64,000 bases of DNA, from assembly GCF_963921235.1 (NCBI RefSeq), contig NC_086097.1, positions 128,900,001-128,964,000 of the forward strand, in the 5' to 3' direction. Positions 1,181 through 64,000 of the stretch are shown here, piece after piece. Position numbers and translations under genes: made by a program. This DNA comes from Mobula hypostoma. Lineage: Eukaryota. Positions within the stretch are counted from its first letter, which is position 1. Every line of letters starts with the position of its first letter. The notes beneath the pieces were generated by a model. It saw only the letters and a program-made list of their open reading frames with translations, was not told where the DNA came from and did no database searches.

Positions 1181-2181
1181 CAGTGGTATGCAAAAGTTTG
1201 GGCACCCCTGGTTAAAATTTCCGCTACTGTGAATAGTTAAGTGAGTAGAAGGTGAACTGATCTCCAAAAGGCATAAAGTTAAAGATGAAACATTCTTTTC
1301 AACATTTAAGAAAGATTATCGCAAACATGAGAAAATCTGCAGATGCTGGAAATTCAAGCAACACACATAAAATGCTGGTGGAACGCAGCAGGCCAGGCAG
1401 CATCTATAAGAGGTACAGTCGACGTTTCGGGCCAAGGCCCTCCGTCAGTATTATTTTTGTTTTGTACAATTTTACAGTGAAAAAAGGAAAGGAGCACCAT
1501 GGAAAAGTTTGGGCACTCCAAGAGATTTGAGCTCTCAGATAACTTTTACCAAGCTCTCAGACCTTAATTAGCTTGTTAGGGCTATGGCTTGTTCACAGTC
1601 ATCGTTAGGAAAGGCCAGGTGATGCAAATTTCAAAGCTTTATAAATACCCTGACTCCTCAAACCTTGTCCAAACAATCAGCAGTCGTGGGCTCCTCTGAG
1701 CAGCTGCCTAGCACTCTGAAAACTAAAAAAAAAAATGATGCCCACAAAGCAGGAGAAGGCTATAAGAAGATAGCAAAGCGTTTTCAGGTAGCCGTTTCCT
1801 CAGTTCGTAATGTAATTAAGAAATGGCAGTTAACAGGAACGGTGGAGGTCAAGTTGAGGTCTGGAAGACCAAGAAAACTTTCCAAGAGAACTGCTCGTAG
1901 GATTGCTAGAAAGACAAATCAAAACTCCCGTTTGACTGCAAAAGACCTTCAGGAAGATTTAACAGACTCTGGCCATGCAGGGTACCCAAACGATTGCTTC
2001 GGGTCCTTTTCCTTTTTTGTTATTTTGAAACTGTAAAGGATAGAAATAAAAAAGTAATCTTGCTTAAAATATTAAAGAAACGTCTTTAACTTTATGCCTT
2101 TTGGAAATCATCTTTTATTCGCTTAGCTATTTACAGTAACAGAAATTTTGACCGGTGTGCTCAAACTTTTGCATTCCACTG
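1181..2181 (+). mobile_element. Tc1/mariner IR-DR type transposon, internally deleted
   Basis: TA at 1179-1180 and 2182-2183. TIRs CAGTGGTATGCAAAAGTTTGGGCAC / GTGCTCAAACTTTTGCATTCCACTG, with long inverted repeats and inner direct repeats near 1497-1518 and 1975-1997. Transposase N-terminus GEGYKKIAKRFQVAVSSVRNVIKKW..RSGRPRKLS (about 1686-1972); no DDE domain. Confidence 0.92.
1323..1448 (-). mobile_element. Short Penelope-derived insert with hammerhead motif, inside the Tc1 left inverted repeat
   Basis: Absent from the right IR. Reverse strand reads CUGACGGA-GGGCC-UU-GGCCC-GAAACGUC-GACU, followed by the Penelope 3' tail. Confidence 0.85.
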
Positions 2182-2189
2182 TATATTCA

Positions 2190-2545
2190 AAATCCAAAGT
2201 AAATTTATTATCAAAGTACATATACATTACCATAAACTACCTTGAGATTCATTTTCTTGCAGGCATTTACAGGAAAATACAATAAAATTTTACAAAAAAA
2301 AACCACATAGATTGACAGTCAATGTGCAAAAAAAAGACAGACTGTGCAAATACTGAGAAGATACCTTGTATAGAAAGTCTACAGGTCATCGAATCAATTC
2401 TGAGTAATGATGTTGAAGTTATCCACACTGGCTCAGAGGTCTGATGGTTATAGGGTAATAACTGCTCCTGAACCTAGTGTGTGGGACCTACGGCTTCTCT
2501 ATCTCCTGCCCAATGGAAGTAGCAAGAACGGAGCATGACCTGGAT
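2190..2545 (-). mobile_element. Rex1/Babar 3' end
   Basis: Reverse strand PGHAPFLLLPLGRR. 3'UTR shared with 28620-28951 and 9585-9800. Confidence 0.7.
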
Positions 2546-3214
2546 ACTTTGGATATTTTGCATACTTTTTATTTGCCCTTGGGACTACCTCAATATACTT
2601 TTGTATGGAATGATCCATCTGGATAGCATTTATGTATATTGGTACACGTGACAATAATAAACTATCAATTACACACCAACTGAAGGGAAAAGGGATGCAA
2701 GTGACACCCCTCCCAGTACACAAGTATAGAATGCCTTCAGGAAGATAACCCATCATCCCCAAAGACAGACATGGATAAATAATGCTAGCTTTGCCGGTGA
2801 TGCTCCTATATCTTGGAGCTGAATAATAAAATATCTCATTATTCTTTTATTGCAATTTATGTATTTATAAGATTTTTCTATTTATTTATTTTTGTAGTTT
2901 ATAGATCTTCATATTTTTACACCATACTGTTGTTGCAAAATAACAAATTCCACATCACATCTCAGCGATAACCCTGGGCAACACAAACTTTGCTTCCTGA
3001 ACACTTTTGGGTGTACCTTATGGATCTTGGGCTGCTGATCATGAAAATCACCATGAAATTTCCCTATCACACACCAGTTTTTATTATAATAAATCTGATT
3101 CTGGTAAAAAAAAAGTGTTTCTGGTTCCAAGGAAATCATGATTTTGCTTTGTCTCTGAATTCTCCAGAAGTTTTAATCAACACACTTACAATCAAGTCAA
3201 GTCTTGCAAAGAAA

Positions 3215-3672
3215 TGGAGACGCAAGAGATTGCCGATGCTGGAATTGACAGCGAGAAAGAAACTGCTGGAAGAACTCAGTGAGTCAAGCCTTATCTGAGT
3301 AGGAAAATGGAAAAACTAGTCCGAGCAAGTTAAAGACTCTTGACCTGAGCCATTCACTGTCCATTTGCCTTATCCACAGATTCTGCCTAACTCACTAAGC
3401 TCTTCCAGAAGTTTGTTGCTTGCAAGGGAAATGTTGGTCAGATTTAGGGCTTTTGAAATCATGCTTAAGTTTGGAATCGGTGACACCTATTCGTGGAAAG
3501 GTATTCCAATAATTTTAACCTGAGTTTGACAGCTTTATCTTAGTCAGCAATGGTAAGGGCCAGCATAAATGGCCGGAGACACAAGAGACTGCTGGAATTG
3601 GGAGCAACAAACAACCTGCTGGTAGAACTCAGCTGGTTGAGCAGCATCTGTGGGAGAAAAGGAATTGTTAGC
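3215..3672. mobile_element. Degenerate Penelope 3'-tail copies (inverted pair 3215-3425, single copy 3575-3672)
   Basis: Similar to gatgctggaa...ctgctggaggaactcagc in both orientations. Confidence 0.6.
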
Positions 3673-4180
3673 GGTAGGGAAAAGATCAACTATTGATCTG
3701 AGTGGATGGCGGCCAGCCTTTAACTTACAAGAAGTCCCCAAGTTATGACAGGGCTCCACACCCGTAACCTGCTTGTAAGCTAGAAACAGCTTCTGACAGG
3801 TGCAAGGAGTCAGCTGCCAGACGCTCTCACTGGCTCAGTGAGTGTGTCTATCTGTTCAGAGCTTCCAGCTCTGTTTGTCTCAACCCAGCCCGATTATTGC
3901 ACTTGGCTGTGGGGTGGGGTACCTCATTCCCACCTGGCACAACTGCAGTAGCTGACAAATTCATCCCCATTCATCCCAATGGTCCCCCAAATGCTCATCC
4001 CTGTGTACAGGGGGCCCATACCCAACATCAAGTTCAGGATTGAGGGAACAAAAAGCCTTCTCCATTGTGCCTATTAAGCAGGACGAAGTAACTGTTTTCT
4101 TGATTTGGTCCAGTATTAAAGCCTTATAATTATATTGCACAACACTGTTAGGAGCAGACTACGATCAGGTTTATCTTCCA

Positions 4181-5640: not shown

Positions 5641-5679
5641 TCTGTTTAGTCTACAGTCTGATGGCTTGGACACTGAGTT

Positions 5680-6212
5680 CCCCAATTTCAGGTTAACTGC
5701 TTCCCCATTCCTTTTCACTCTTCTTCTGATCTACTCACTCTCTCCTAAATCCACACAGCCCCCCTCCCCATCACCTTGTTTCCTCTTTTCCATCCACTCC
5801 ATCTTCCTTTCACACACATACTCCTCCCCTCACTTTTCCCATCCCTCCATCCTACCTCCCTCCTTTGATTCCGTGCTCCACCTTCCTCTCTAATCATATT
5901 CATCATCTTCAGCTCATTGTTGCCTCATCTATCACCTCCCAGCCTCTGTCATTATTTCCACTCTCCCGTTCCCCCCCTGCCTACCACCCCTCCTCAACTG
6001 GACCCACCTATCACCTACCAGCTCTTGCTCTATCCCCTTCCCCTCACCCCTTTATACTGCCTACCTCCCCTCTATATTTCTGTCCAAACGAAGGGTCTCA
6101 ACCTGAAAATCCGACTGTCTATTTCACTTCACAGACACTGCCTGACCTGCAAAGTCCCTCCAGTAACTTGTTTGTTGCACCAGATTCCAGCATTTGAAGT
6201 TTCTCATGTCTC
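5680..6212 (+). mobile_element. Penelope-like element 3' region with decayed hammerhead (6081-6116)
   Basis: Pyrimidine-rich tract, then gtcCAAACGAAgggtctcaacctGAAAatccgact, then the tail ccagattccagcatttgaagtttctc. Confidence 0.7.
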
Positions 6213-6760: not shown

Positions 6761-7825
6761 ACAGATGACACAAAGCCTTAAGTGTTGTGAAGGGTGGGGG
6801 AGAGAGGAATGGACTTCAAGAGAAGATAAGCCGAGAGTGGAACTATTAAGTCCCAAACACAGAAAAGTAAGGCAGGAAAAATGAGGAAAGACGATGTTTT
6901 TAAGGAGATGGAAATTGAGACATGCTTGTGCACAAATATTGCAGAATAACAGTGTTCAATGTTGTGTGCAGGCAATACTTGTCATTTCCTCCAACAAAGC
7001 ATGTCTTGTTTGTAGCTCTATCTCTAAAAGGAGATAATAAACCCCTTGGGATTCAGAGTGACATAAATCAAAGCACACCATGCAAAATCCAGGAAATTAT
7101 ACTAAACCAGAATGCCCTATTCTATGATTACAACTCATGGGAGCTTGCTACGTATATTTTCTACATTACATTAAGGACCACCCTCCATTAGTTATAGGGA
7201 CAGGCTGCGGCGAGGGAAAACACCACTAAGTTGTTTTGCCTCCTTAAGCAGCCTTGGGTGGGGAGGCTGTTCAAACTCAGCCAGAACCTAAACTACTCCC
7301 TTTTAGTTTCTTCTGTCCCACAAAGCTACAGCATTAGGAGCCCTGATTCCCTCTTCTGGACTGGCCAACTATAAAGAAATATTTGAATATATGATAGTCT
7401 GTGTTAGCAGATTATTTGCTATTTACTGCCGATAATAAGCATTGTACTGTAATAGGCTGTGTGGAGTGCTATTATATGGCATTTCAATGAGGTGAAAGAA
7501 GTGCCACAAAACTTGTAACAATTTACAGTGGAGAATCATTTAAACACCCTACTCCAGTGAAGAGAGTTGAGATAAATTGGTGAGGAACTACAACAAAAAC
7601 ATTATTTTTAAGTCTAAAAGACAGGGTTATTTGTGTCACTTAACAACCAGGCCATTTTCCCACAAATCGTGCTTTCAACAAGATACTGAGTGTAAGAGGA
7701 GAGAAAATAAGGGTTAAAATTGTATGTGGAAACACAGGCAATTTGTTTGAAGCGCAACCACTTACACTTCAGTTTCAAACAGCTTTCGAATAAGATTATA
7801 AAATCTGTATACTTTGGTTAAATAC

Positions 7826-8032
7826 CTCAACAATGGCACCACTACGCAGCCGAAGGAAATGCCTATACAGCTCTTGTAGGCCGCTGAGGTGTACGGTGTA
7901 GATGAACACATGAGTGGTGGTGTTTTCCTGGCTAGGCTCCGATCCAGGGGCTTGATTGTGCTTCTGGAGTCCACAGGCATGGGACAGGCGTTCGGTGAGC
8001 TCATCATTGCAGACGTAATCATACACTGCCAC
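7826..8032 (-). CDS. ofcc1: Coding exon (phase 0) near the C-terminus; 207 bp to GAG|gtattt, or reads through to TAA at 7798-7796
   Basis: Acceptor tcttctttatctcactag|GTG. Encodes VAVYDYVCNDELTERLSHACGLQKHNQAPGSEPSQENTTTHVFIYTVHLSGLQELYRHFLRLRSGAIVE(VFNQSIQIL*), with GC-rich third codon positions. Continues GEKRK|VAVYDY in frame. Confidence 0.8.
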
Positions 8033-8819: not shown

Positions 8820-9275
8820 TGGAACGAGTGCAGGGAGAACTTACGGGAATGCTGCCAGGACACAAGGGCCTGAATTATGGGAAGAGGTTAAGCAAGGCAG
8901 GACTTTATTCCTTGGAGTGCAGGAAACTGTCGGGTGACCTTATAGACGTGTGTAAAATCATTGGGGGGGGGGATAGTTAAGGTGAATCCATATAGTCTTT
9001 TTCCCTGGAAAAGGGAATCAAAATCTAGAGGGCATAGGGGAAAGATTTAAAAGGGGCCTGAGGGGCAACTTCTTCACACAGTGGGTGTTGTGTATTTGGA
9101 AGTGGTTGAGGCAGGTACAATACAACACCTAACAGGTAGCTGGAGAGGTTCACTGATAGGAAAAATTCAGAGGGATTATGACTTACACAGGGGGAAAATA
9201 GAATCAGTTTAGATGGATGCCTTGGCCAGCATGGAGGAGTTGGGCCGAAAGGTCTGTTTCCATTTTGTGTCACTC
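8820..9275 (+). mobile_element. CR1 3' end
   Basis: ERVQ..TGMLPG..GLYSLECRKLSGDLIDVCKI; tail gggccgaaaggtctgtttcc. Confidence 0.85.
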
Positions 9276-9584
9276 CAAGTCTCCACTAATGTGAACACTG
9301 CGAATGAGCAGTGAAGGAACGAAAAGTGGGATAAATTCATTTAACTTCACCAATGACAGAAGCGCTTAAATAAATAAAATGCTGAAAAAATAGGCTAAAC
9401 TTTGATTTGAATCCTTGTCTTTGTAAAGACTGCTGTCTCAGAATAAGACTGTTCCCTGGACGCATAAATTTCAGATTGAATTTCTTGCTCGTGTTTTAAA
9501 ATTGTGTTTGCTACCTTCCCTGGATAGCTAGACCACGTGGTTGAGCAGAATAAGAAAAGGCCACAGTAACTCTGTGCCAGATTT

Positions 9585-11029: not shown

Positions 11030-11575
11030 CAAGATCCAGTCAAAAGCTTTAGTCTTTCCAAACATAATGACATTAAGGCAGTAAAAACAAAAAACAATAA
11101 CAGAATACAGAATATACAGTTACAATTACAGAAAAAGTACAGCGTAGTTAGGCAAATAAGGTGAAAGAACCATGACAAGGTAGACTGAGAGATTAGAAGC
11201 TTATCTTTATCATATAAGATGTCTCTTCAAGAGTTTTTTAACAGCTGGATAGAAGCTGTCCTTGAGCCTAGTGGTATGCGCTTTCAGACCTTGTGCCTAA
11301 TTGGGGGGGAGGGGGGATGAAGAACAGAGAATGATTGGGAGGGGTCTTTGATTATGTTAGCTCTTTTCCTGAAGTGGGGCAAGTGTCGACAACGTCAACA
11401 GATGGAAGGCTGTTTTCCATGATAGACTGGACAATATCCACAACTCTAACTTCCTTGAGATATAGGACAGAGTAGTTGCCACACCAAGCTGTGATCCATC
11501 TGGATAGGATGCTTTCTACGATGTATCTGTAAAAACTGGTGACAGTCACAGGAGACATACCAAAATTTTCCTTGT
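11030..11575 (-). mobile_element. Rex1/Babar 3' fragment
   Basis: SFYRYIVESILSRWITAWCGN on the minus strand. Confidence 0.8.
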
Positions 11576-11645
11576 CACAGCATTACAAGTCCTACTTGTG
11601 TGCAGTGTATTGTGATCCTTAGATCAAGTGACCACTTCTCGGCTC

Positions 11646-12483
11646 CATAGAAACATAGAAAGCCTACAGCACAATACAGACCCTTCGGCCCACAAAGCTG
11701 TGCCGAACATGTCCTTACTATACAAATTACTGAAGGATACCCACAGCCCTCTATTTTGCTAAGCTCCATGTACCTATCCAGGAGTCCCTTAAAAGACCCT
11801 ATCATATCTGCCTCCACCACCATTGCCGGCAGCCCATTCCACTTACCACTTACCACTCTCTGTGTAAAAAAGCTTACTCCTGACCTCTCTTCTGTACCTA
11901 CTTCCAAGCACCTTAAAACTGTGCCCTCTTGTGTTAGCCATTTCAACCTTGGCAAAAGCCTCTGACTATCCACACGATCAATGCCTCTCATCATCTTATA
12001 CACCTCTATCAGGACACCTCCCATCTTCCGTCACTCCAAAGAGAGAAGGCCGAGTTCACTCAACCTATTCTCACAAGGCATTCTCCCCAATCCAGGCAAC
12101 ATCCTTGTAAATCTCCTCTGCACCCTCTCTATGATTTCCACATCCTTGCTGCAGTGAGATGACCAGAACTGAGCACAGTACTCCAAGTGGGGTCTGACCA
12201 GGGTCCTACATAGCTGCAACATTACCTCTCGGCTCTGAAACTCAATCCCACGATTGATGAAGCCCTATGAACCGTATGCCTTCTTAACCACAGAGTCAAC
12301 CTGCGTAGCAGCTTCGAGTATCCTATGGACTCGGACCCCAAGATCCCTCTGATCCTTCATGCTGCCAAGAGTATTTGACCTACCAAAATAAACCACCTCA
12401 CACTTTTCTGGATTGAACTCCATCTGCCACTCCTCAGCCCAGTTTTGCATCCCATCAATGTCCCGCTGTAACCTCTGACAGCC
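11646..12483 (-). mobile_element. CR1 LINE, 5'-truncated (about 840 bp)
   Basis: WAEEWQMEFNPEKCEV, LCRTLVRPHLEYCAQFWS, IEVYKMMRGIDRVD; frameshifted. Confidence 0.92.
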
Positions 12484-15945: not shown

Positions 15946-16861
15946 CTAGCACCTGGAGAATAATGCATGAACAGTACGACATTGCACATTTAGTACTTGC
16001 AAAGCCAGAAACATTTCTATCCAACACCTGATTGGCAGTTAGAATAATATTTAAGGCTGTTTAGAAAAGAATTTTTATCTTCATTTACAACATGTATTTG
16101 CAGAAATGTGTGGGAAAATAGTTTCATCTCTGCAAAGTTAGAAACGTATCTTCTTCCTTCTACCCTGTTGGGGAAAATATAAGAGTCAGAGTTGAAACAG
16201 CTTTTGAAATCTCAATTTTCTTCATAAATAAAACTTTGAGAATAGCTTGTGGAGCCTATTTTATAGCAGGTTACCAGATGTGTAGCATTCTAAGCGATGT
16301 ATCACTGATCCTAGGGAATGAATGGGTAGGTTGGAATTTAAACTTGCTAACTCTTGAGCAGCTACGGGTATGGATTCTTGATGTTACAGGGTAAACGTGC
16401 ACACTCATCACATTCTTTTCAAGTTGTTATTATGGATGTCCATGTCCTTGCTTGCCCTTGGCAGTGTAACAAGGATAAGCTGCATGCAACAATATTCTAA
16501 TTAAACCCCAATCTTGATTTAATTTATGGTGGCAGACCACAATAGAGAATTAAAATCATAAAAACACTCACACTGATAACAGGAAGTTGGAAATTTCAAA
16601 GATCATTTCCACATCACCATGAGCTTAATGAAATTACTATATTAACGAAAACCTAATTGCTTTTATATTTACTGATTAATTAACTCATTAATTAAGCTTT
16701 ATTACAATGGAAAATATCAGTAACTCTTTCTTGCAAATCAAATAAAAATTGCTATCAAAATTTAAATGAAATCTTTGATCTGAAACATTAGCACTGTTTC
16801 TGTTCCCACAGATGCGCCTTGCCGTGCTGAGTATTTGCAGCAGTTTCTATTTTTATTGCTG

Positions 16862-18177: not shown

Positions 18178-18539
18178 TATATCTAATAATCTGGATTCTA
18201 CCACCATCAGGGGCAGAAAATTCTGTAGATTCCCTTCTCTCAGGGAAATTTTGACACATCTCAGTTTTAAATGACTGGCCCCTCAATTTGCAGCTAAGTC
18301 CCCTTACAACAATAAGCATGAAGGACCATAACTATACTCCAGTTCAGTACTAAGGGACTTGTGTACAGTCAGTGCAATGGAGAAAAATGTGACTGCAGAT
18401 GCTGAAAACTGAAGCAACAAATAACCTGCTGGGGAAACACTGCAGTTCGAAGAGTATCTGAGGGAGGAGTTGAATTGTTATCATTTTGGGTGGAAACCAA
18501 CTCAATGGCTCAACATGACACAACACGGCATGAAAGGAA

Positions 18540-19022: not shown

Positions 19023-19232
19023 AACAAGAAAAAATCTGCAGATGCTGGAAATCCAAGCAACACACAGAAAATGCTGGAGGAACTCAGCAGGCCAGGCAGC
19101 ATCTATGGAAAAGAGTACAGTTGATGCTTCTGGCTGAGATCCTTCATCAGGTCCCACTGAAAGGACTCAACTGAACTCTTTCCCACAGATGCTACCTGGC
19201 TGTTGAGTTCCTCCAGCATTTTGTGTGTGTTG
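19023..19232. mobile_element. Inverted pair of Penelope 3' tails with decayed hammerhead (19119-19154, minus)
   Basis: aaaatgctggaggaactcagcaggccaggcagcatct ... agatgctacctggctgttgagttcctccagcatttt. Reverse strand CUGAUGAAggaucucagccaGAAGcauc. Confidence 0.85.
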
Positions 19233-19899
19233 TCTACATGAATGGTGTTGTCCCAAATCAAGAGCTTGGGTGTTAGTTTGGCCATTTGCTCAAATGGATC
19301 ACTCAGCTTAACTGCTTTAGGTAACTAATACATCTACCACTGGAGAACTGACTTCCACATTGAACAAACCTCTGCCTTCCTAATAGTTCATTTACTGAGT
19401 ACTTCATAAATATATAATAAGTATCATGTTGATGCAGTAGCTAAACCACCAGTGTGGAAATTGGAGAGCCTCCCCCTCCACACTGAGAATCCTTCATGGA
19501 AGCTTTGGAATTTGGAAACAAAAAGAAAATACCAAGTAGAGTAAAAAATAGACCATGAAACTATCGTTTTGTCATATAATCCTTGAAACATCTTGTGGCA
19601 AGGGCAGAGGAAGAAATCTGCTCTTGCATGGTCAGGTTTCCAACCCAAGTGGACGGTCCTTTAATTTCTCAGCAGTGTCCCACCAAGCTGTTCAGTTGTA
19701 AATGAAGAGAGACGTGCAAGTAAATTTTGGACTTGACAAGGATGCCAAGATCCCAAAACAGAACTGAAACAGAATCAAGGTAATCCCTGATCTGGAGTAT
19801 CACGGTAGGAGCACCCCTTTACAGTTACACTGTCGCTCAATGAAAATTAAGCTATAAAGAGCAGCAAGATTTAGGTGCCCATTTATAGAAATTAATATG

Positions 19900-28974: not shown

Positions 28975-30143
28975 TTATTCCACCTACCATCATTCCCAGA
29001 ATCCTGATTGAGAAGTTGCAGAACCTGGGCCTCTGTACCTCTCTCTGTAAATAGATACTCGACTTCCTAACTGGAAGACCACAATCTGTGCGGAGTGGTG
29101 ATAACATATCCTCTTTGCTGATGATCAACATTGGCGCACCTCGGGTATGTGCTTAGCCCACTGCTCTACTCTCTGTATACGCATGACTGTGTGGCTAGGC
29201 ATAGCTCAAATACTATCTACAAATTTGCTGACGATACAACCATTGTTGGTAAAATCTCAGCTGGTGACGAGAGGGCGTAGAGGAGTGAGATATGCCAAAT
29301 GGTGGAGTGGTGTCGCAGCAACAACCTTGCACTCAACGTCAGTAAGATGAAAGAGCTGATTGTGACTTCAGGAAGGGTAAGATGAAGGAACACATACCAA
29401 TCCTCATAGAGGGATCAGAAGTGGAGAGAGTGAGCAGTTTCAAGTTCCTGGGTGTCAAGATCTCTGAGCATCTAACCTGGTCCCAACACATTGATGTAGT
29501 CATAAAGAAGGCAAGACAGCGGCTATACTTTATTAGGAGTTTGAAGCGATTTGGCATGTCAACAAATACACTCAAAAACTTCTATAGATGTACAGTGGAG
29601 AGCTTTCTGACAGGCTGCATCACTGTCTGGTATGGGGGTGGGGGCTACTGCACAGGACCAAAGGAAGCTGCAGAGGGTTGTAAAACTAGTCAGCTCCATC
29701 CTGGGCAATAGCTTACCAAGGACCCAGGACATCTTTAGGGAGCTGTGTCTCAGAAAGGCAGCATCCATTATGAAAAAACTCCAGCACCCAGGGCATGCCC
29801 TTTTCTCACTGTTACCATTAGGTAGGAGATACAGAAGCCTGAAGGCACACACTTAGTGATTCAGGAACAGCTTCTTCACCTCTGCCATCTGATTCCTGAA
29901 TGGACTTTGAACCTTTGGACACTACCTCACTTTTTTTAAATATACAGTATTTCTGTTTTTGCACATTTTTAATAATCTATTCAATATATGTAATCAATTT
30001 ATTTGTTTATTTATTATGTTTTATTTTATTTATTATGATTTTTTTTCTTTCTCTGCTAGATTATGCATTGCATTGAACTGCTGCTGCTAAGCTAACAAAT
30101 TGCACGTCACATGCCAGTAATAATAAACCTGATTCTGATTCTG
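28975..30143 (+). mobile_element. Rex1/Babar LINE, 5'-truncated, RT region to 3' tail
   Basis: ILDFLTGRPQSVR, LSPLLYSLYTHDC, YKFADDTTIVG, FKFLGVKIS, KKARQRLYFIR, LLPLGRRYRSLK. Ends aataaacctgattctgattctga. Confidence 0.93.
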
Positions 30144-35774: not shown

Positions 35775-35990
35775 TTTCTACTTGACTGGCTGAGTTCTTC
35801 CAGCATTTTGGTTTGTTTTAGGCAAAACCATTGTGTGCCATCTACAAAGTGCAGCACAATTGCCTGACACAAAATATGCTGGAGGAACTCAGAGGTCAGA
35901 CAGCATCCACGGAGGGGAATTAACAGTTGACATCTTGGGACAAGACCTTTCATCTCAGCCTGAAACATTGACTATTAACTCTTCTCTCTA
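35775..35990. mobile_element. Penelope 3'-tail fragments in both orientations
   Basis: gctgagttcttccagcatttt; gctggaggaactcag..cagttgacatcttgggacaagacctttcatc|tcagcctgaaacattgac. Confidence 0.7.
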
Positions 35991-39514: not shown

Positions 39515-40502
39515 ACTAGAGCCTGTGACTTGTGGTGTGCCACGGGAATCTGTGCTGGATCCATTGCTGTTTGTCATCTATATCAACAATCTGGATGATA
39601 ATGTGGTAAACTAGATCAGCAAATTTGAGGATGACAGCAGTATTGGGGGCGTAGTGGACAGTCTGGTCAAAGTTTGCAGTGGAACCTGGAAGAGGTAGGA
39701 AAAAAATGGGCTGGCAGATGGAATTTAATTCAGACAAATGTGAGATGTTGCACTTTGGGAGGACAAATCAGGATAGAACTTACACACTGAATGGTAGGGT
39801 GGTGAGGAGAGTGGTAGAACAAAGAGATCTGGGAATATAGATCCATAATTGCTTGAAAATAACTTCACAGATCAATAGAATCATAAAGAGTGTTTTTGGC
39901 ATATTGGCCTTCATAAATCAAAGTACTGAGTACAGAATTTGGGATGTTATGTTGTAGTTATATAACACATTAAAGAGGCCTAATTTGGTGTATTTTATGC
40001 AGTTCTAGCCATCTATCTATAGGAAAGATATCAATAAGAGTACAGAGAAAAATTGCAAGGATGTTGCTGGGGTTGAGATCCTGAATCATAGCGAAAGGTT
40101 AAGTAGGTTAGGACTTTATTCCCTGGAGTCTAGGAGAATAAGGGGAGATTGATAGAGGTATACAAAATTATGAGGGTATAGATAGGGTAAATGAAAGCAG
40201 ACGTTTTTCCACTGAGGCTCGGTGAGATTAGAATTGGAGGTCATGTGTTAAGGGTGAAAGGTGAAATGTTTAAAGGGAACATGGCAGGGGGGACTTCTTC
40301 ACTCAGAAGGTGGCGAGAGTGTGGAACGAGTGTGGTAGATGCAGGCTCAATTTCAATATTTAAGAGAAATTTGGATACGTACATGGACAGGATAGGTAAG
40401 GAGGGCTATGAACCAGATGCAGGTTGATGCAGAGTAATAATCCAGGCTTGGACTAGATGGGCCGAAGGGCTTGTTTCTATGCGGTGGTGCTCTATGATTC
40501 TA
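39515..40502 (+). mobile_element. CR1 LINE, 5'-truncated
   Basis: PVTCGVPRESVLDPLLFVIYINNLD..SKFEDD; WQMEFNSDKCE; 3' tail. Confidence 0.9.
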
Positions 40503-41599: not shown

Positions 41600-44110
41600 T
41601 CAATTCTTCTTGGCCATATCCCCCTCAATCCATGAGGTACTGCCCTTTACCTCTAACAAAGCGAGTGTCCAAAACTCGCCAGATTGTCCCTCAACAATTC
41701 TGGGAGGTGGAATTGCTTGGGAACTGGAGCCAAGGGGCGGACACTCAAAGGCTTGAGGTGGGACACATGGAATGTGGGACAAATCCACACAGTGCTCAAG
41801 AGTAACTGGGTAGATGCATCACAGGATTCTGACTGGACAGATGTAATGGAGGGCCAATTTTCTGGATTCATCTGGGAGCTCTCTAGTTGAGAACCAGGCC
41901 TGCTGACTGGGAAGAAGTGTTTGTCCCTGCCTTCTCCAGCAGTTGGCCTGGTCTTGTTGCTGCCGCCGCGAATTGACCAACAACTTCTCTCTTAACCTAC
42001 TCCTGGTGACATCTCAGTACCAGTTGTTCTGCTGATGGAATCCCCATCTCCACTTCTTGTTCCAGGAACAGTGGAGGATGGTTCCCAAAATGGCGTTCAA
42101 AAGCGGACATCCCAATTGACGAATGTTGAAAGGTGTTGTGTGTCAGCTCTGCCCAGATAAGGTTGCCTCTCCAGGTGGTAGGGGTCCCTGAGGCTAGACA
42201 CGTGTATGTTCTAATCTAGGTCCTGGTTGACCCTCTCTGTTTGCCCATTGGTCTGCAGAAGGAATCCGTACAACAGACTGGCAGAGGCCCCAGTAAGCTC
42301 ACAAAAGGCCTTCTAAAACCTAGAGGCAAACAGGGAGCCATGTTCAGAGACAATGTCGTGGGGGAGACCATGAATCCTGAAGTTGTGTTGTAACATGAGC
42401 CTGGCAGCCATTGAAGCTGACGGTAGTTTGGGAAGCGGTAGACTTGGAGAATTAGTCTACGCCACCATGATTACTGTATTACTCCAAGATGCTGGAAAAC
42501 CTGTAACAAAGTCCATAGAAATGTGGAGCCAATGGTGAGTAGAAATGGGGAGAGGCTGAAGCATACTTTGAAGCTGTGCTCAGGGTTCTTTATTTCGTGT
42601 GCAGATATCACACGCCAAGTCATATTCCCAGACATCTTTAGTCATGCCTGGCTACCAGTAATGCCTCGCGACGAACTCTAGGGTGCAAGCCACCCTGGAT
42701 GCCTAGCCAGGTTTTAAGCGTGTTCCCAGTTGAGCACCTCCAAATGAACAGCTTTGAGAACAAAGTTACATCTGAGAGGACCATTACCCAGGTCTGCCCC
42801 ATTTTACTCTTGGGCTCAGCACATGGGCGCCACCACTCTGGAGCTGAGAATTATAGCTGAAGGGTTCTCTTCCCCATTAGGTGCTTCAAACTGTCAAGAG
42901 AGGACATCTAGTGTTTGATCCTGGGTGCTAAGTAATAAGGAAGTTGAACCTATTAAAGAATACGGACCAAAGTACCTGTCTGGAATTCAGCCTCTTCGCA
43001 TCCTCAATGCAGGCTAGGTTTTTGTGGTGGGTCCATATCACAAATGGATGTTTGGACCATTCCAACCAATGCCTCCACTCCTCCTGTGCTAGTTTAACAG
43101 CCAACAATTCCCAATTCCCGACGTCATAGTTTGACCCCATGGGAAAAAGGCAGAGGGATGCAGTTTGTGGTCCAAGGCATGTCAATGGGCCAAGAAGGAC
43201 CCAACTCCAATGTCCAACGTGTCGATCTCCACCACGAAAGGCAAGTCCGAGTGGAACCGGGATAGGTGTGAATATGAACCTTTGATTTAACTTTGCAAAA
43301 GCCATCCGGCTCCATGGTCCAGCGGAAGGGCTCAGTCAATTTCTTGATGAGGTTGGTGAGCAGCATTGCCACTGAACTAAAATTGTGGTAATTGCCTTCT
43401 GTAAGAGTTGGCAAAAATTAGAAACCATTGGAGTTGTTTCAGAGGTGGGTTGCAGCCAATCCCACACAGCCTGGGTTTTATCGACGTCCATTTGTAGGCG
43501 GTTACTATATGTAAAAGCACAAGGGAAGAGACTAATTACATAGAATTCACCCTTCAAGCTTGACAAATTGTTGATTCTGAAGAAGCCATTGTAAAGCCTG
43601 CTTGATGTGCTGGACACATTCTTGAGTGGTCTGGAAGAAAATGAGTTTATCGTCTTGATAGACAAAGTAGTGTAGCATCTCCTGGAGCACATCATTGATA
43701 AAGGCTTGAAATACCATTGGAGTGTTTGCCAACCCAAAATGCATGACTCAGTATTCATAGTGGCCTGCAAGTGTGTTGAATGTCATTTTCCATTCATCTC
43801 CCTCATAAATGCAGATTCAGTTGTAGGTGCTACAGGGGTTCATTTTGGTAAATATTGAAGCTCCCTTGAGAATCTCAAAGGCCACGTTCATGAGAGTGAG
43901 AGGGTACCAGTTTGATCTTATTTAGCTACCTATAGTCTATGCAAGGCCTTAGTCCACAATCCTTCTTGGTTACAAAGAAAAACCCAGCCCAAAAGGAGAT
44001 GTGGACAGTTGAATAAACCCAGCATCAGAGCTTCTTGGATGTAGTCCTCCATGGCTTTTTCTCTCTGGGACAACAAAATGTAGAGCTATCCCCAAGAGCT
44101 CTTCCAGAAA
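41600..44110 (-). mobile_element. Ty3/Gypsy (sushi-like) LTR retrotransposon internal region: RT, RNase H, integrase; pseudogenised
   Basis: [96 protein letters not shown]. Many stops and frameshifts. Confidence 0.92.
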
Positions 44111-44786: not shown

Positions 44787-44928
44787 AAACACGAGGAATT
44801 CTGCAGATGCTGGAAATTCAAGCAACACACATCAAAGTTGCTGGTGAACGCAGCAGGCCAGGCAGCATCTCTAGGAAGAGGTACAGTCGACGTTTCGGGC
44901 CGAGACCTTTCGTCAGGACTTATTAAAC
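44787..44928 (-). mobile_element. 142 bp Penelope-derived insert with 10 bp TSD, inside CR1
   Basis: TSD ctctaaacct at 44777-44786 and 44929-44938; CpGs retained. Confidence 0.9.
44885..44920 (-). ncRNA. Minimal type I hammerhead ribozyme motif
   Basis: AGUC-CUGACGA-A-AGGU-CUCG-GCCC-GAAA-CGUC^GACU. Core CUGANGA and GAAA, stem I AGUC/GACU, palindromic ACGU stem III, GUC cleavage triplet (cut between 44889 and 44888). One mismatch at the base of stem II. Confidence 0.75.
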
Positions 44929-48249: not shown

Positions 48250-48770
48250 TGACAACAGATGCTGTTCATCTGAAATAAAAACTCAAAATATTAGTTATAA
48301 ACAAGAGAAAATCTGCAAGTGCTGGAAATCCAAAGCAACGCACACAAAATGCTGGAGGAACTCAGCAAGTCAGGCCGCGTCAATGGAAGTGAATAAACAG
48401 TCGACATTTCAAGCTGAGAATATTAGTTATACTCAGGAGGACAGGCAGTATCTGTGAAGAGAGCAAAAGGGTTAATATTTCAAGGCAATAACTGTTGAAA
48501 GATAATCTACCTGAAACATTAACTCTTTTTCCCTTCGCACATGCTGCCTGACCTGTTAAGTGTTTCACAAACAAGAGAAAATCTCCAGATGCTGGAAATC
48601 CAAGCAACACACAGAAAATGCTGGAGGAACTCGGCAGGCCAAGCAGCATCTCTGGAGAAGAATACAGTTGACGTTTAGCAGGGCCTGATGAAGGGTCTCA
48701 GCCCAAAATGTTGTCTGTACTCTTTTCCATAAATACTGCCTGGCCTGCTAAGCATTTTCTATTTTTATAA
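48250..48770. mobile_element. Nested cluster of Penelope 3'-tail copies with a CpG-decayed hammerhead (48681-48716, plus)
   Basis: Younger aaacaagagaaaatctgc.. copies at about 48299 and 48568 lie within older inverted copies. gggcCTGATGAAgggtctcagcccAAAAtgtt. Confidence 0.8.
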
Positions 48771-52564: not shown

Positions 52565-53697
52565 AACCGTCCTGCATGGGAAGCTAGTCAAGAAGGTTCA
52601 GTCACTTGGTGTTCAAGATGAGGTAGTAAATTGGATTAGACACTGGCTTTGTGGGAGAAGTCAAAGAGTGGTAGTAAATAGTTGCCTCTTTGACTGGAGG
52701 CCTGTGACTAGTGGAATGTCACCAAGATTAGTGCTGGATCCATTACTGTTTGTCATCTATATCATTATCTGAATGATAATGTGGTAATCTGGATCAGCAA
52801 ATTTCCAGATGACAAGAAGATTGGAGTGTAGTGGACAGCGAGGAAGACTATCGGAGCTTGCAGCAGGATCTGGACAAGATGGGAAAATGGGCTGAAAAAT
52901 GGCAGATGGAATTTAATACAGACAAGTGTGAGGTGTTGCACTTTGGTAGAACCAACCAGTGTGGGTCTTACACAGTGAACGATAAGGCACTGAGGAACAT
53001 GGTAGAATAGAGGGATCTGGGAATACAGATCTATAATTCATTGAAAGAGATGGCACAAATAGATAGGATCATAAAGGAAACCTTTGCCAATTTGGCCTTC
53101 ATAAATCAAAGTACTGAGTATAGGAGTTGGGATGTAATATTGAAGTTGTATAAGATGTTGGCGAGGCCTAATTTGGAGTACTGTGTGCAGTTTTGGTCAC
53201 CTACCTTCAGGAAGGATGTAAATAAGGTTAAAAGAGTAAAGAAAAAATTTACAAGGATGTTGCTGGGACTGGAGGACCGAAGTTATAAGGAAAGATTGAA
53301 TAGGTTAGGACCTTATTCCTTGGGATGTTAGAAGTTTAAGGGGAGATCTGATAGATCTGTACAAAATTATGACGTTTATAGATCAGCTAAAAGCAAGCAG
53401 GCTATTTCCTCTGAGATTGGGCGGGACTGCACCTTGCAGGGGTCATGGATTAAGGGTGAAGAGTGAAAAGTTTAAGGGGAACTTGAGGGGAAACGTGTTC
53501 ACTCAGAGGAGTGTGAAACAAGCTGCCAGTGAAAGTGGTGCATGCAAGCTCAACTTCAACTTTTAAGAGAGGTTTGGATAGGTACATGAATGGCAGTGGT
53601 ATGGTGGCCTATGGTCCGGGTGCAGTTTAAATGGTTCAGCATGGACTAGATGGGCTGAAGAGCCTGCTTCTGTGCTGTACTTTTCTATGATTCTATG
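52565..53697 (+). mobile_element. CR1 LINE, 5'-truncated (about 1.1 kb)
   Basis: WIRHWL..QRVVVN..WRPVTSG..LFVIYI..KFPDD; LYKMLARPNLEYCVQFWSP; tail ttctatgattctatg. Confidence 0.92.
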
Positions 53698-54494: not shown

Positions 54495-55075
54495 CCAGTG
54501 CTGTTGAAAGTTTGAAGCAGCAAACAAGATGTTGAAGGAGCTCAGGCAGCTTCTATGTAGACAGTCTACATTTCGGGTTGAGACCCTTCAGTGCTACTTC
54601 AGATGCCATCAACTGCAGTCCTTTGTGCCTTTGAGCTCTGGTTGCCACATAACAGGAATACAGAGGAACGAGAGGGTGCAGAGAAGAGTAATACCAAGAA
54701 TGCAATGGTACACATTTCAAGAAAGCATGAGTATATTGAGTGGTATGAAGGTAACACTTCGGCTCCAAGACCCTTTTTCTAATGAATGGATTCAGGGAAA
54801 ATGTGTCCATATGTGGGAAAGAGAACAAAGGACAGAGAATTTAGAGGAAACATATTTACCCAAACAGGAACAGTAATATGGAACTCACTACAACATAGAA
54901 TAGTTGAAGCCTATGGATAGAAACACACAGTTCATGAGAGACAAGATGGGTGCATAAGGGAGAAGGGGGTACAGGGTGACACTGAAAGCTGTGAAAGACA
55001 GACAACAGCTTGAGGATGGATACATGAGAGCATGGAGTGGTCAGGTTATAAAGTGCTTCTGTGCTGTATTCACCT
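54495..55075. mobile_element. Penelope tail with partial hammerhead (54563-54590, minus), followed by degraded CR1 (plus)
   Basis: Reverse strand tgaagggtctcaacccgaaatgtagact; gagagggtgcagagaaga. Confidence 0.55.
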
Positions 55076-55409: not shown

Positions 55410-56846
55410 AATATATTGGTGCTGCTTCCTGCACCCATGCTGAGCTCTCAATTTCATCAACTTTGCCTCCAGCTTCCACCCTGCTCTTAATTCATCTGGT
55501 CCATTTCTGACACCTCTCTCCCCTTTCTCAATCTCTGGAGACAAACTGTCTATCAACATCGTTTATAATCCCTCTGATTCCCACGGCTATTGTGACTATA
55601 CCTCTTTTCACCCAACCTTCTGTAAAAACAAAACACTATTCTCTTTTCTCAGTTCCTTCGTCTTCACCATATCTATTCCCAGGATGAGCCTTTCCTTTCC
55701 AGGACATCAGAAATGTCCTCCTTTTTCAAAGAAAGGGTGTTTCCCTTCCTCCACTATTGATGCTGCCCTCAATTGCATCTCCTCCATTTCTTGAACATCC
55801 ACATTCACACCATCTTTCCACCACCTTAACAGAGATAGAGTTCATCTTGTCCTCAACAACCAGGCCATGAGCCTCCGCATCCAACATACCATTATCTACA
55901 ACTTCTGCCATCTTCAAAGGGACCCTAACGCCAAACAATTTTACCACCACCCCCCACTCCTTGCTTTCAGCAGAGATCACTCCCTCTATATTCCCTTGTC
56001 TGTTTGTCTCTCCTCACTTATCTCCCTCCTTGCACGTATCCCTGCAAGCAACAGAAATGCTACACCTGAACATTCACCTCCTCCCTCACCTCCATTCAGG
56101 GCCCCAAACGGTCCTTCCAGGTGAGGCAACACCTCACCTATGAATCTGTTGGGGTCGTCTACTGTATCCAGTGATTCCCGATACAGCCTCCTGTGCATTG
56201 ATGAGACCTGATATAAATTGGGGAACCGCTCAGTCGAGCACCTCCGCTCTAGCCACAAGAAGTGGGATTTCCCAGTGGCCAAACATTTAAAATCTTATCC
56301 CTATTCCCTTCCCAACATGTTGGTCCATGGCCTCCTCTTCTGCCACAACGAGGTCACTCTCAGAGTGGAGGAGCGACTCATGATATTCCGTCTAGGAAAC
56401 CTCCAATCTGAAAGCAATAAAAATGATCACTCTTTCTGGTATTTCTCCCCCCCCCCACCACTTTCCCTCTTCTATTTCCCACTCTGGCCAGGAACATCTT
56501 CTCTTTATCTGCCTATCACCTCCTTGTGGTTCCCCTACTTCTTTCCTTTCTCCCATAGTCCACTTTCCTCTCCTATCAGGTTCCTTCTTCTCCAGCCCTT
56601 TGCCTTTTCCAATTATCCAGTTTCTTACTTCAACTCTTCTTGCCCTTCTAGCTTGTCCTCTTTTCATTCCCCCCACCTTTTTAATATGCTATCTTCCCCC
56701 CTTCCCTACCAGTCCTAATAAAGGCTCGCGGCCTGAAACGTTGAATTTTTATTCCTCTCCATAGATGCTGCCTGACCTGCTGAGTTCCTCCAGCATTTTG
56801 TATGTGTTGCTCTGGATTTCCAGCATCTGCAGAATCTCTTGTATTT
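55410..56846 (+). mobile_element. Penelope-like retroelement, 5'-truncated: RT C-terminus, GIY-YIG endonuclease, 3' tail with decayed hammerhead (56711-56746)
   Basis: IGAASCTHAEL..FINFAS.FHPAL..WSISDTSL, SDSHGY.DYTS.HP, FSQFLRL, SFQVRQHLTYESVGVVYCI, RSVEHLRS..FPVAKH, TLRVEERLMIFRLGNLQ. Confidence 0.92.
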
Positions 56847-57742: not shown

Positions 57743-57824
<82 letters not shown>

Positions 57825-61565: not shown

Positions 61566-61661
61566 TATGGCTGCAAGAAATGGAACATAAAACAGTACAA
61601 CAGAGAAACAGACCCTTTGCCCACAATGTTGTGCCAAACAAATTGAGCTAATTATTCCTAA

Positions 61662-62071
61662 CACGAGGAAATCTGCAGATGCTGGAATTTCAAGCAACAC
61701 ACATAAAAGTTGCTGGTGAACGCAGCAGGCCAGGCAGCATCTCTAGGAAGAGGTACAGTCCCTATTTCGGGCCAAGACCCTTCGTCAGGACTAACTGAAA
61801 GAAGAGTTAGTAAGAGATTTGAAAGTGGGAGGGGGAGGGGGAAATCCAAAATGATAGGAGAAGACAGGAGGGGGTTGGGATGGAGCCAAGAGTTGGACAA
61901 TTGATTGGCAAAAGGGATATGAGAGGATCATGGGACAGGAGGCCTAGGGAGAAAGAAAAGGGGGTGGGGGGGGAGGAACCCAGAGGATGGGCAAGGGGTA
62001 TAGTGAGAGGCACTTCCTATTTTCTTCCTAGAGATGCTGTCTGGCCTGCTGCATTCACCAGCAACTTTTAT
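61662..62071 (-). mobile_element. 410 bp Penelope-derived insert with 14 bp TSD, inverted terminal segment and hammerhead (61757-61792)
   Basis: TSD ctaattattcctaa at 61648-61661 and 62072-62085. About 48 bp inverted repeat, 61704-61751 vs 62023-62070. Confidence 0.9.
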
Positions 62072-62876
62072 CTAATTATTCCTAATCTCTTTTGCCTGCA
62101 AATGGTCCGTGGTCCATGGTCCGTTCTCTACACATTCATGTGCCTACCTAAACAACTCTATCATTTCTTCCTTCACCGCCACCACTGGCAGGGCATTACA
62201 GGCACCCACCACTGTCTGTGCAAAACAAATCTTCTTTAATCTCTCCCTCTCCGACCTTAAATGCATGCCTTTTGGTTTTAGACATTTTGAAGCTGTCAAC
62301 TCTGTCTGTGCTTCTCATAATGTTATAAACCTCTATCAGTTGTCCCCTCATCCATTAGCACTCCAGATAAAACAACCATAGTTTGTCCAGCCTCTCCACA
62401 TAACAAATGCTTTCTGATTCAAGCAGCATCCAGGTGAACCTCTTCTGGACCCTCTCCAAAGTCTCAACATCCTTCCTATAATGGGGCGACCGGAATTGAA
62501 TGCAATACTCTAGATCCTGCTTAAAGAAAGTTTTATCAAGCTGCAAGATAACTTCCTAACTCTTGAACTCAATGTCTTAATTAATAAAGGAAAGCACGCC
62601 ATATGCCTTTACCACCCTACTGACTTGTGTGAACACCTTTCGGGACCATGCACTTGGACCAGATCCCTCTGTACATCAATGTTGTTCAAGAGTCCTGCCA
62701 TTACTTTCCCTTGATATTTAATCTCCCGAAGTGCAGCACAACACATTTGGCCAGATTAAACTCCATCTGCCTATAACTGCAACTGACCTATATCCCGCTG
62801 TATCCTATGACAGTCTTCCACGTTATCTACTACACCACCAATTTTCATATCATCTGCAAACCTACCAACCCATCCA

Positions 62877-63001
62877 AACAAGAGAAAATCTGTAGATGCT
62901 GGAAATCCAAGCAACACAGAAAAATTGCTGGAGGAACTCAGCAGGCCAGGCAGCATCTATGGGGAAGAGTACAGTTGACATTTTGGGCCAAGACCCTTCA
63001 G
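62877..63001 (-). mobile_element. Short Penelope-derived insert truncated within the hammerhead
   Basis: aaacaagagaaaatctgtagatgctgg...cagttgacattttgggccaagacccttca; CR1 resumes on both sides. Confidence 0.85.
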
Positions 63002-63573
63002 CACCTATGTTTTTGTCCAGGTCATTTACTTATACTTCAAACAGCAGAGGTCCTTGTATGGATTCCTGCAGAACACTACGGTCACAGATCTCCAGCCAGA
63101 AAGCCATCGATCACTGCCCCCTATCTTCTACGGACAAGCCAATTCTGAATCTAATGTCACATTGGATCTCGTGAATCTTAATCTCCAGGAGAAGCCTACC
63201 ATGAGGAACTTCATCAAATGTCTTAGTAATATCCATGTAGATAACACCCACTATTCTATCTTCATCAATCACTTTAGTCACTTCCTTGAAAAACTCAGTC
63301 AAGCTAGTAACACTTGATCTGCCCTGCATAATATAAAGGAAAGAAAATAACTTACAATTTTTAACTGTGATTGCTCTAATTTGTTTCAATTTTTAAAATC
63401 ATTTGCCTTCTTTTAGTAATTTAAATGGTTCTAATTGTATTTTTTTTATTTTAATAGATGTTTCAAAATGTTAGGGAAATGAGGAGCATTGAACAAACTT
63501 GGCAGCTTCAGAGGTAGGTACGTGGGGTGTGGCTTAGCCAACTGTTAGAGCATTCCTGAGTAGTTTAAAGGGT

Positions 63574-64000
63574 AACACACACAAAATCCTGGAGGAACTC
63601 AGCAGATCAGGCAGCATCTGTGGAAATCAATAAATAAATGACATTTCAAACCGAGACCCTTCATCAGGACTGAGGAGAAAGGGAGAAGACACCAGAAAAA
63701 AAAAGGTAGGGGAATGGGAAGGATGCTGGCTGGGAGGTGATAGGTGATGCAATTGGGTGGGAAAGTTACAAGGGCTGGAGAAGAAGGAATCTGACAGGAG
63801 AGGAGAGTGGACCATAGGAGAAAGGGAAGGAGGAGAGGATCCAGGGGGAAGTGATATGCAGGTGAGAAGAGGTAAAAGGCCAGAGTGAGGAACAGAGGAA
63901 GAGGATAGGGGGAGAGAAATTGATATTCATGCCATCAGGTTGGAGGCTAACCAGACGGAATATAAGGTGTTGCTCCTCCACCCTGAGGGTAGCCTCATCT
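63574..64000 (-). mobile_element. Penelope-like element 3' end (GIY-YIG C-terminus, tail, hammerhead 63636-63671); runs off the window
   Basis: EEQHLIFRLVSLQPDGMNINFS; reverse strand AGUC-CUGAUGA-A-GGGUCUCGGUUU-GAAA-UGUC. Confidence 0.9.

What the first reader, a model, noticed from the sequence alone, without database searches (positions are those of the whole stretch)
1323..63671. Dense family of hammerhead-ribozyme-bearing, Penelope-derived mini-elements (retrozyme/SINE-like) in a probable elasmobranch intron
Seen: about 11 copies of one motif, consensus AGUC-CUGAYGA-A-GGGU-CUCG-GCCC-GAAA-CGUC-GACU, at 1417, 6081, 19119, 35925, 44885, 48681, 54563, 56711, 61757, 62973 and 63636. Each sits about 100 nt from the same 3' tail. 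Stem II tolerates variation (GGGCC/GGCCC, GGGU/GCCC, G.U wobbles). Known: Penelope-like elements carry minimal type I hammerheads with a tiny palindromic stem III that can cleave as dimers. Inference: the 125-410 bp non-coding tail moves as its own unit here, at roughly one copy per 6 kb, which would make it an extremely abundant ribozyme family. I cannot tell whether it is already described for this lineage.
Basis: partly seen in the sequence, partly recalled or inferred. Interest (0 to 1): 0.75.

Follow-up and report, generated by a model that had tools for sequence, protein, structure and literature searches.

The report
Ray Penelope stumps with minimal hammerheads
The repeats are cut-short end pieces of a very abundant Penelope-type jumping gene in a ray-like genome, carrying an already described kind of tiny predicted self-cutting RNA motif; they are likely dead-end by-products rather than a self-copying mini-element, and many stop just in front of the motif rather than at its predicted cut site.

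Summary
The motif is real (23 hits in the window) and genome-wide: 263 hits in 1.2 Mb of unselected DNA, 0 in the reversed control, about 7.6e5 ends by extrapolation. It is the pseudo-LTR end (minimal type I hammerhead plus tail) of a Neptune-type Penelope-like element; a 3,511-nt tandem unit with an RT/GIY-YIG frame was found. Lengths run smoothly to beyond 2.6 kb, but young copies stop 13 times more often in a 36-nt zone at the hammerhead's 5' edge (p 8e-12); only 2 of 225 start at the cleavage site. Short and long copies share variants, with no tandem arrays or Pol III boxes, so 'retrozyme/SINE' is not supported. Head-to-head pairs carry one long and one short 3' end in 29 of 34 cases. An older subfamily has an A6C core. 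Only 1 of the 11 named copies keeps core and stem I. Cleavage is untested; no host exon was found. The scan has reported the same thing in at least 24 genomes. New member of a known kind.

The parts
1323..1452 (-). Short pLTR end, starts at about core C3, long tail; core A9 changed to G
5989..6209 (+). Older (subfamily C) end reaching about 96 nt upstream of the core; core broken
19023..19233 (.). Head-to-head pair: minus arm 19023-19153 with long tail, plus arm 19158-19233 with short tail; 14-bp TSD with 2 mismatches (19008-19021/19233-19246)
35867..35986 (.). Decayed minus-strand end (35867-35954) with a short inverted piece (35953-35986)
44787..44920 (-). Young subfamily A short copy, first base at -4 (A of AGUC), long tail, 10-bp TSD (44777-44786/44929-44938)
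44885..44920 (-). The only near-intact minimal hammerhead in the window: all core letters, stem I and the ACGU palindrome present; first stem II pair is an A.C mismatch
48300..48428 (-).
48431..48561 (.). Old, decayed head-to-head pair (48431-48488 minus, 48506-48561 plus)
48570..48752 (.). Head-to-head pair: minus arm 48570-48677 with long tail, plus arm 48682-48752 short; core broken (G12 changed to A)
54503..54591 (-). Decayed short copy starting inside the core
55415..56845 (+). 1.43-kb 5'-truncated Neptune-type PLE: RT C-terminal and GIY-YIG remnants (55444-56460), pyrimidine-rich 3' UTR, broken hammerhead at 56711, long tail
61660..62071 (.). Young head-to-head insertion: minus arm 61660-62013 (222 nt of UTR, hammerhead with cleavage triplet lost, long tail) plus short plus arm 62023-62071; 14-bp TSD (61648-61661/62072-62085)
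62877..63003 (-). Short subfamily B copy with the A6C-type core remnant (GCUGA), long tail
63572..64000 (-). Older copy with short tail, at least 430 bp, running off the window; core letters intact, stem I 3' arm lost
3230..3657 (.). Three further decayed ends (3230-3297 minus, 3331-3424 plus, 3589-3657 minus)
16777..16850 (+). Decayed end
18393..18491 (-). Decayed end

Best explanation
These are 5'-truncated ends of a Neptune-type Penelope-like retrotransposon, and the short ones are likely dead-end by-products of its copying rather than a family that copies itself. Shown: the parent is a 3.5-kb unit with one RT + zinc-finger linker + GIY-YIG frame; the hammerhead lies about 300 nt after the stop codon and, in tandems, just in front of the next frame; copies end at one of two 3' points about 35 nt apart; lengths run from about 90 nt to more than one unit; a quarter to a half of young copies stop in a short zone at the 5' arm of stem I. 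Inferred, from Penelope biochemistry in PMC11167929: the element's protein binds the RNA near the tail, nicks both DNA strands, and starts cDNA at the two internal sites. Using one site on each strand would give the head-to-head pairs with one long and one short end. Inferred and open: why copying stops at the hammerhead's 5' edge. Most likely (about 45%) many templates begin there, at an initiator-like YYAGUCC, so priming at the 5' pLTR runs off after 95-135 nt. Alternatives are a block by the folded or protein-bound hammerhead (30%), a splice-acceptor or branch-point effect (15%) and junction microhomology (10%). The motif is predicted to be inactive alone and to need a second copy or the element's protein; cleavage does not set the ends of the insertions.
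For: Parent: RVT_1 and GIY-YIG in 3 of 3 long frames, CxxC linker, full partial tandem in L034 with a 3,511-nt unit. Continuum: 62 of 225 mapped copies reach beyond -100, up to the -2612 limit of the reference; 42 of 120 random loci hold frame fragments. Hot-spot: in young subfamily A (n=53), 23 starts in -23..+12, a stop rate of 0.016/nt against 0.0012/nt on both sides (p 8e-12). Whole-genome exact counts are 4289, 3962, 3489, 3186 and 2824 as a 43-nt motif is extended 0, 2, 4, 6 and 11 nt upstream; with 1.1%/site decay (4 of 363 sites), about 26% end within 11 nt, peaking between -2 and -4. No short-copy lineage. One long plus one short 3' end in 29 of 34 adjacent pairs in the random set (27 of 32 after dropping two redundant rows, p 4e-5) and 52 of 60 subfamily A pairs over all loci. 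Paired arms share variants (41 of 47 at one site against 63% expected). TSDs of 8-21 nt were called for 25 of 50 young copies. Core and stems are invariant at 24 of 27 positions across four subfamily majorities against 62 of 101 elsewhere (p 0.006), while decay after insertion is similar (0.078 against 0.094): selection acted on source elements, not on copies.
Against: A simple 'RNA starts here' reading is weakened: of 30 copies carrying the frame's N-terminus, 19 run 90-1284 nt past the 5' hammerhead and only 3 stop at -2 to -4. The short fraction is higher in older subfamilies (B 40 of 57, C 64 of 78, A 22 of 51), which could reflect poorer mapping of old copies or some secondary amplification of short copies. 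The lineage test uses only 65 nt, so it has limited power. The hot-spot has shoulders out to -37, upstream of the initiator-like site. No raw RNA reads were available to map starts.
Confidence: 0.78

Rival explanations
1. The 95-135-nt unit is a self-propagating non-autonomous element (SINE-like). It would carry an internal promoter at its own 5' end and the protein-binding tail, so solo copies are transcribed and recopied by the parent's enzyme.
For: A strong 5' pile-up, solo copies with TSDs, an initiator-like YYAGUCC at the boundary (sequence; initiator consensus recalled), and a unit that holds the RT start sites, which is all the lizard PAc protein needs in vitro (PMC11167929). Short copies dominate older subfamilies.
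Against: No sequence separation of short from long copies in three subfamilies. 5' ends spread over about 35 nt with no single shared end. 12 of 17 young short copies are arms of head-to-head insertions. No Pol III A or B box in any of four subfamily majorities.
Confidence: 0.13
2. A non-LTR retrozyme: the RNA cuts itself at tandem hammerheads, circularises and is reverse-transcribed, so the unit is bounded by the cleavage site.
For: A type I hammerhead with a palindromic stem III; retrozymes in vertebrates derive from PLE ends, one chondrichthyan included (10.64898/2026.07.22.740005); more-than-unit-length copies exist.
Against: No tandem arrays of the unit in the window or in 1.2 Mb. Only 2 of 225 copies begin at +27/+28, and none of 53 young ones. 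No copy of the short class is a circular permutation starting after the cut. The motif is the minimal type, not the canonical type found in retrozymes (PMC7229834 passages).
Confidence: 0.03
3. The pile-up is made after or during repair, not by the template: long head-to-head palindromes are trimmed or joined through the hammerhead's self-complementary stems, leaving junctions there.
For: 68 of 263 random hits (34 pairs) sit in adjacent head-to-head pairs, and several junctions are palindromic.
Against: Solo copies with clean TSDs also start at -2 to -8 (L173, L193, L066; window 44787-44920), and 3 near-full-length copies stop at -2 to -4.
Confidence: 0.06

Closest known systems
Minimal hammerheads (min-HHR) in pLTRs of metazoan Penelope-like elements (Cervera and De la Pena 2014, PMC4209133; parts 1-2 of 4 read)
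   Same: Type I, short stem I, extra nucleotide after A9, G10.1-C11.1 pair, palindromic 15.2-16.2 with no loop 3; found in pLTRs of fish Xena, Poseidon and Neptune elements, mostly as single dispersed motifs of truncated PLEs, sometimes paired on opposite strands
   Different: Stem II here is 4 bp. About 1e5 motifs with core and stems intact are estimated here (34 of 263 hits in 1.2 Mb), against about 4,000 and 9,000 reported for coelacanth and Xenopus (different method). No cartilaginous fish appears in the parts read, and no 5' hot-spot is described.
Neptune-clade EN+ Penelope-like elements (Craig et al. 2021, PMC8557442; passages)
   Same: C-terminal GIY-YIG, zinc-finger-like linker, partial tandems, frequent 5' truncation, adjacent inverted 5'-truncated copy, 30-40-bp tail often on one end only
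   Different: Copy number is far higher here; no microsatellite targeting was seen in the flanks read; the clade is assigned by domain layout, not by a tree
PAc/Poseidon of the green anole (Frangieh et al. 2024, PMC11167929; parts 1-2 of 4 read, whole main text)
   Same: Two 3' ends matching two internal RT start sites; hammerhead next to the frame start; no reads or ends at the cleavage site
   Different: PAc is Poseidon-clade and was tested in vitro (protein-assisted cleavage, not needed for insertion); nothing here is tested
Non-LTR retrozymes (Cervera and de la Pena 2020, PMC7229834, passages; Li et al. 2026 preprint 10.64898/2026.07.22.740005, parts 1-3 of 5 read)
   Same: Non-coding, PLE-related, type I hammerhead
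   Different: Retrozymes are head-to-tail arrays with a hammerhead in each unit and give circular RNA; these copies are solo or head-to-head and not bounded by the cut site
Natural A6C hammerhead of phage Bcep176 (Perreault et al. 2011, PMC3088659; section 8 read)
   Same: The same core change as in subfamily B here
   Different: There it is a single example with low activity (kobs under 0.1/min); here it is carried by a whole amplified subfamily

Membership tests
EN+ Penelope-like element (Neptune type) | Single frame with RT followed by C-terminal GIY-YIG | tested here: met
   RVT_1 and GIY-YIG in 3 of 3 long frames (GIY-YIG scores 18.9-21.3 bits, just under the 22.6 cut-off); GVIY...YIGET motif
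EN+ Penelope-like element (Neptune type) | Zinc-finger-like CxxC linker between RT and EN | tested here: met
   C-KRNK-C-YT-C in P0001
EN+ Penelope-like element (Neptune type) | Partial tandems forming pLTRs, inverted 5' copy, optional 30-40-bp tail, TSDs | tested here: met
EN+ Penelope-like element (Neptune type) | RT phylogeny places it in the Neptune clade | not tested
   No named reference set was fetched; the assignment rests on domain layout
Minimal type I hammerhead of PLEs | Core C3-A9, G12-A14, A15.1-U16.1, H17 with stems I and II and a palindromic loop-less III | tested here: met
   Majorities of subfamilies A, C and D keep all 11 core letters; B has A6C; 34 of 128 hits spanning the motif are intact
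Minimal type I hammerhead of PLEs | Lies in the pLTR of a PLE | tested here: met
   About 300 nt after the stop codon in most long copies
Minimal type I hammerhead of PLEs | Self-cleavage as dimer or with protein | not testable with these tools
   Folding only: the active monomer fold has probability 0.001 for A and 0.33 for B
Non-LTR retrozyme | Head-to-tail tandem repeats with a hammerhead in each unit | tested here: not met
   0 such arrays in the window; 1 of 45 arrays in 1.2 Mb touches a hit and is a 68-nt duplication. Rare arrays elsewhere in the genome are not excluded
Non-LTR retrozyme | Unit bounded by the cleavage site | tested here: not met
   2 of 225 starts at +27/+28
Non-LTR retrozyme | Expressed as circular RNA | not testable with these tools
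   Only assembled contigs of guessed RNA runs were served
SINE | Pol III internal promoter (A/B box) from tRNA, 5S or 7SL | tested here: not met
   No box in four subfamily majorities on either strand; no such Rfam hit
SINE | Own lineage with a fixed 5' end, separate from the partner element | tested here: not met
   Permutation p 0.13, 0.95, 0.61 (limited power); ends spread over about 35 nt

The most novel reading that the evidence does not exclude
The genome is a fossil record of the unsolved Penelope copying cycle. Each tandem RNA would start at the hammerhead's 5' edge and carry the hammerhead-plus-tail twice, like a retroviral R region. A protein dimer would prime the long-tail site on one pLTR and the short-tail site on the other, on opposite DNA nicks. 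The 95-135-nt class is then an integrated 'strong-stop' product, and more-than-unit copies come from a jump between the two repeats. Support: the one-long-one-short rule, and the long-tail arm carrying the same allele in 6 of 6 pairs whose arms differ at one site (post hoc, small n). The A6C subfamily would show that catalysis is dispensable while the fold is kept.
Probability: 0.2. Interest if true: 0.65.

Novelty: new member of a known kind. Interest (0 to 1): 0.3.

Why it matters
As a family it is ordinary: minimal hammerheads at the ends of truncated Penelope-like elements have been known since 2014. What it adds is scale and statistics. About 7.6e5 ends, and roughly 1e5 intact-looking motifs, make this one of the densest hammerhead-motif loads I could find in print (the axolotl figure is 'up to 120 000', PMC7229834 section heading). 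Thousands of near-identical young junctions allow models of Penelope reverse transcription to be tested from sequence alone: where copying stops, the one-tail rule, and whether cleavage matters. By extrapolation from 34 adjacent pairs in 1.2 Mb, about 1e5 short inverted pairs could form double-stranded RNA wherever they are transcribed (untested).

Tried and rejected
Rfam scan: no hammerhead family at E<=1. Two tail-only DNA searches of the genome returned nothing because the words are too common, so an unselected 1.2-Mb sample was used instead. The first genome search was biased by flank letters in the query toward copies starting at AAGUC and was not used for end statistics. One search used references that held unrelated insertions and was redone. 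One search had an off-by-one index and was redone. Expression: no RNA holder listed; only contigs of guessed RNA runs were served. Laying them gave no start or end pile-up. The one GT..AG joint shown lies inside the frame, and none lands at the acceptor-like site (182 joints not shown), so the splice idea is neither supported nor excluded. No consistent extra G (cap signature) was seen at 5' junctions by eye. The apparent start peak at +33 is attributed to a divergent reference (c329) and was discounted. Host exon search: 142 frames in Pfam gave only a retroelement RT hit. Rows dropped: 3 unmapped and 7 locus-edge copies of 235; 36 of 263 unassigned to a subfamily; two redundant pairs of 34 for the binomial test (whose printed label says 28/32 but which tested 27 of 32). 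The young set stayed at 50 of the 100 listed loci. Literature searches found no paper on this family in rays or on a 5' hot-spot. Repbase, Dfam, subscription papers and all supplements were not seen and may already list it, including the supplement of the 2026 preprint, which covers one chondrichthyan.


Full report
Observation. The 11 sites hold the described motif or decayed forms of it, and a profile of 8 window copies finds 23 ends in the window. Below, position 0 is core C3 of CUGA and the predicted cut falls after +27. Only the copy at 44787-44920 keeps all core letters and stem I; 63636 keeps the core but has lost stem I; the other nine named copies are broken or start inside the motif. 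Clear TSDs flank 4 of 13 insertions tested (10, 13 and 14 bp exact, 14 bp with two mismatches). Rfam gives no hammerhead hit.

Abundance. In 120 unselected 10-kb loci from many contigs there are 263 hits, in 101 loci, and none in the reversed control. That extrapolates to about 7.6e5 ends in 3.48 Gb. Of these hits, 128 span the whole motif, 51 keep the canonical core and 34 keep core and stems, or about 1e5 genome-wide. One exact 43-nt version occurs 4,289 times. The window's density is therefore typical, and its genic context does not matter. I found no host exon, so 'intron' is unproven. The parent protein's nearest named relatives are ray proteins (76-92%) and shark proteins (61-68%).

Parent element. 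The window itself holds a 1.43-kb fragment with RT and GIY-YIG remnants ending in the 56711 motif. Long frames elsewhere carry RT, a CxxC linker and GIY-YIG, the layout of Neptune elements (PMC8557442, passages). The hammerhead lies about 300 nt after the stop codon. L034 is a complete partial tandem with a 3,511-nt unit, in which the tail runs straight into the start of the frame.

3' ends. They are bimodal, near +95 and +128, matching the optional 30-40-bp PLE tail. In the anole element that tail lies between two internal RT start sites, and both DNA strands are nicked and extended (PMC11167929). Head-to-head pairs here carry one long and one short end in 29 of 34 adjacent pairs in the random set (27 of 32 without two redundant rows, p 4e-5) and in 52 of 60 subfamily A pairs over all loci. 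Paired arms share subfamily variants more than chance (41 of 47 against 63% expected; 25 of 29 against 57%). In the 6 pairs that differ at one site, the long-tail arm has the same allele each time; this is a post hoc lead, and some pairs up to 1.6 kb apart may be unrelated neighbours.

5' ends. Copies were detected with a tail-only profile so that the hammerhead did not bias the count (235 hits, 225 usable). Sixty-two reach beyond -100, smoothly, to the limit of the reference; 98 start between -30 and +19, with the mode at -4; 2 start at +27/+28. In 53 young subfamily A copies, 23 start in -23..+12: a stop rate of 0.016/nt against 0.0011-0.0012 downstream and upstream (p 8e-12). Exact whole-genome counts fall from 4289 to 3962, 3489, 3186 and 2824 as the motif is extended 2, 4, 6 and 11 nt upstream. 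After correcting for 1.1% decay per site, about 26% end within 11 nt and the loss peaks at 5% per nt between -2 and -4. Among 50 young loci, 17 start in -40..0, 12 of them as arms of inverted pairs. The boundary sequence, a pyrimidine tract followed by YAG-UC, reads both as an initiator and as a splice acceptor (both consensus motifs recalled); in Drosophila Penelope an intron ends at the 5' end of helix I (PMC4209133). Against a hard RNA start: 19 of 30 copies holding the frame's N-terminus run 90-1284 nt past the 5' hammerhead, while 3 stop at -2 to -4.

Is the short class its own family? Short and long copies do not separate within subfamilies A, B or C (p 0.13, 0.95, 0.61, on 65 nt only). 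There are no tandem arrays of the unit and no Pol III boxes. The short share is higher in older subfamilies, which leaves some room for secondary amplification or reflects poorer mapping. I put a self-copying element at 13%.

The ribozyme. Across four subfamily majorities, 24 of 27 core and stem positions are invariant against 62 of 101 elsewhere (p 0.006), while copies decay evenly after insertion (0.078 against 0.094 per non-CpG site). The motif was thus kept in source elements; the profile-based alignment may slightly favour the core. Subfamily B carries A6C (27 of 46 letters in the random set; 25 of 30), a change with low activity in a phage hammerhead (PMC3088659 section 8). The subfamily A monomer is predicted to fold with its core paired into stem I (active fold p 0.001). 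Published PLE motifs show no activity as monomers and low activity as dimers (PMC4209133), or need the element's protein and are dispensable for insertion (PMC11167929). Activity here is untested.

Comparison and verdict. It meets the tested features of EN+ Penelope-like elements and of their minimal hammerheads, and fails those of retrozymes (tandem arrays, ends at the cut; PMC7229834 passages; preprint 10.64898/2026.07.22.740005 parts 1-3) and of SINEs. Inverted pLTRs with a one-sided tail are long known (PMC3846280 passages). Six searches found no description for rays or of the 5' hot-spot; Repbase, Dfam and supplements were not seen. PMC6155905 was seen as passages. The scan's own notes report the same thing in at least 24 genomes; my reading was written down before that look-up. 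New member of a known kind; interest 0.3, held up by the mechanistic statistics.

Noticed in passing
window 37796-38047: Near-perfect fold-back: two 121-nt arms, 93% complementary, 10-nt spacer; possibly a MITE or hairpin element
   Followed up: no
window 1623-2036 (+): Tc1/Sleeping Beauty-like transposase N-terminal remnant (HTH_SB, E 1e-9, below the curated cut-off)
   Followed up: no
window 42931-43747 (-): LTR-retroelement remnant: RT and RNase H-like Pfam hits
   Followed up: no
window 638-1104, 8864-9285, 39712-40502, 52848-53695, 11575-12030 and others: Many 3' ends of a LINE family (direct-repeat families D2, D6, D9, D10, D14, D15; CR1/L2-like by recalled motif)
   Followed up: no
window 29346-29711 (+): LINE-derived frame with an ALKBH8_N Pfam hit, likely a retroelement fragment rather than a host exon
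   Followed up: no
L246-L275: Subfamily B has C instead of A at hammerhead core position 6 in 25 of 30 best-preserved copies
   Followed up: partly
L223, L243, L316, L323, L120, L077: In 6 of 6 head-to-head pairs whose arms differ at one tail-proximal G/T site, the long-tail arm has T, hinting that the arms come from two different pLTRs of one source
   Followed up: partly
L118:4829-4962: An inverted arm that is exactly the short unit (starting at about -5) joined head-to-head to a 2.2-kb truncated body
   Followed up: partly
L061:3606-3810 and 7704-7908: The same head-to-head insertion twice, 4,098 nt apart: a local duplication
   Followed up: no
one search hits P0003, P0004: Ray gene models named 'divergent protein kinase domain 1C isoform X2' and 'chitinase domain-containing protein 1 isoform X1' consist largely of this element's protein, so they are probably annotation artefacts or exonised copies
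   Followed up: no
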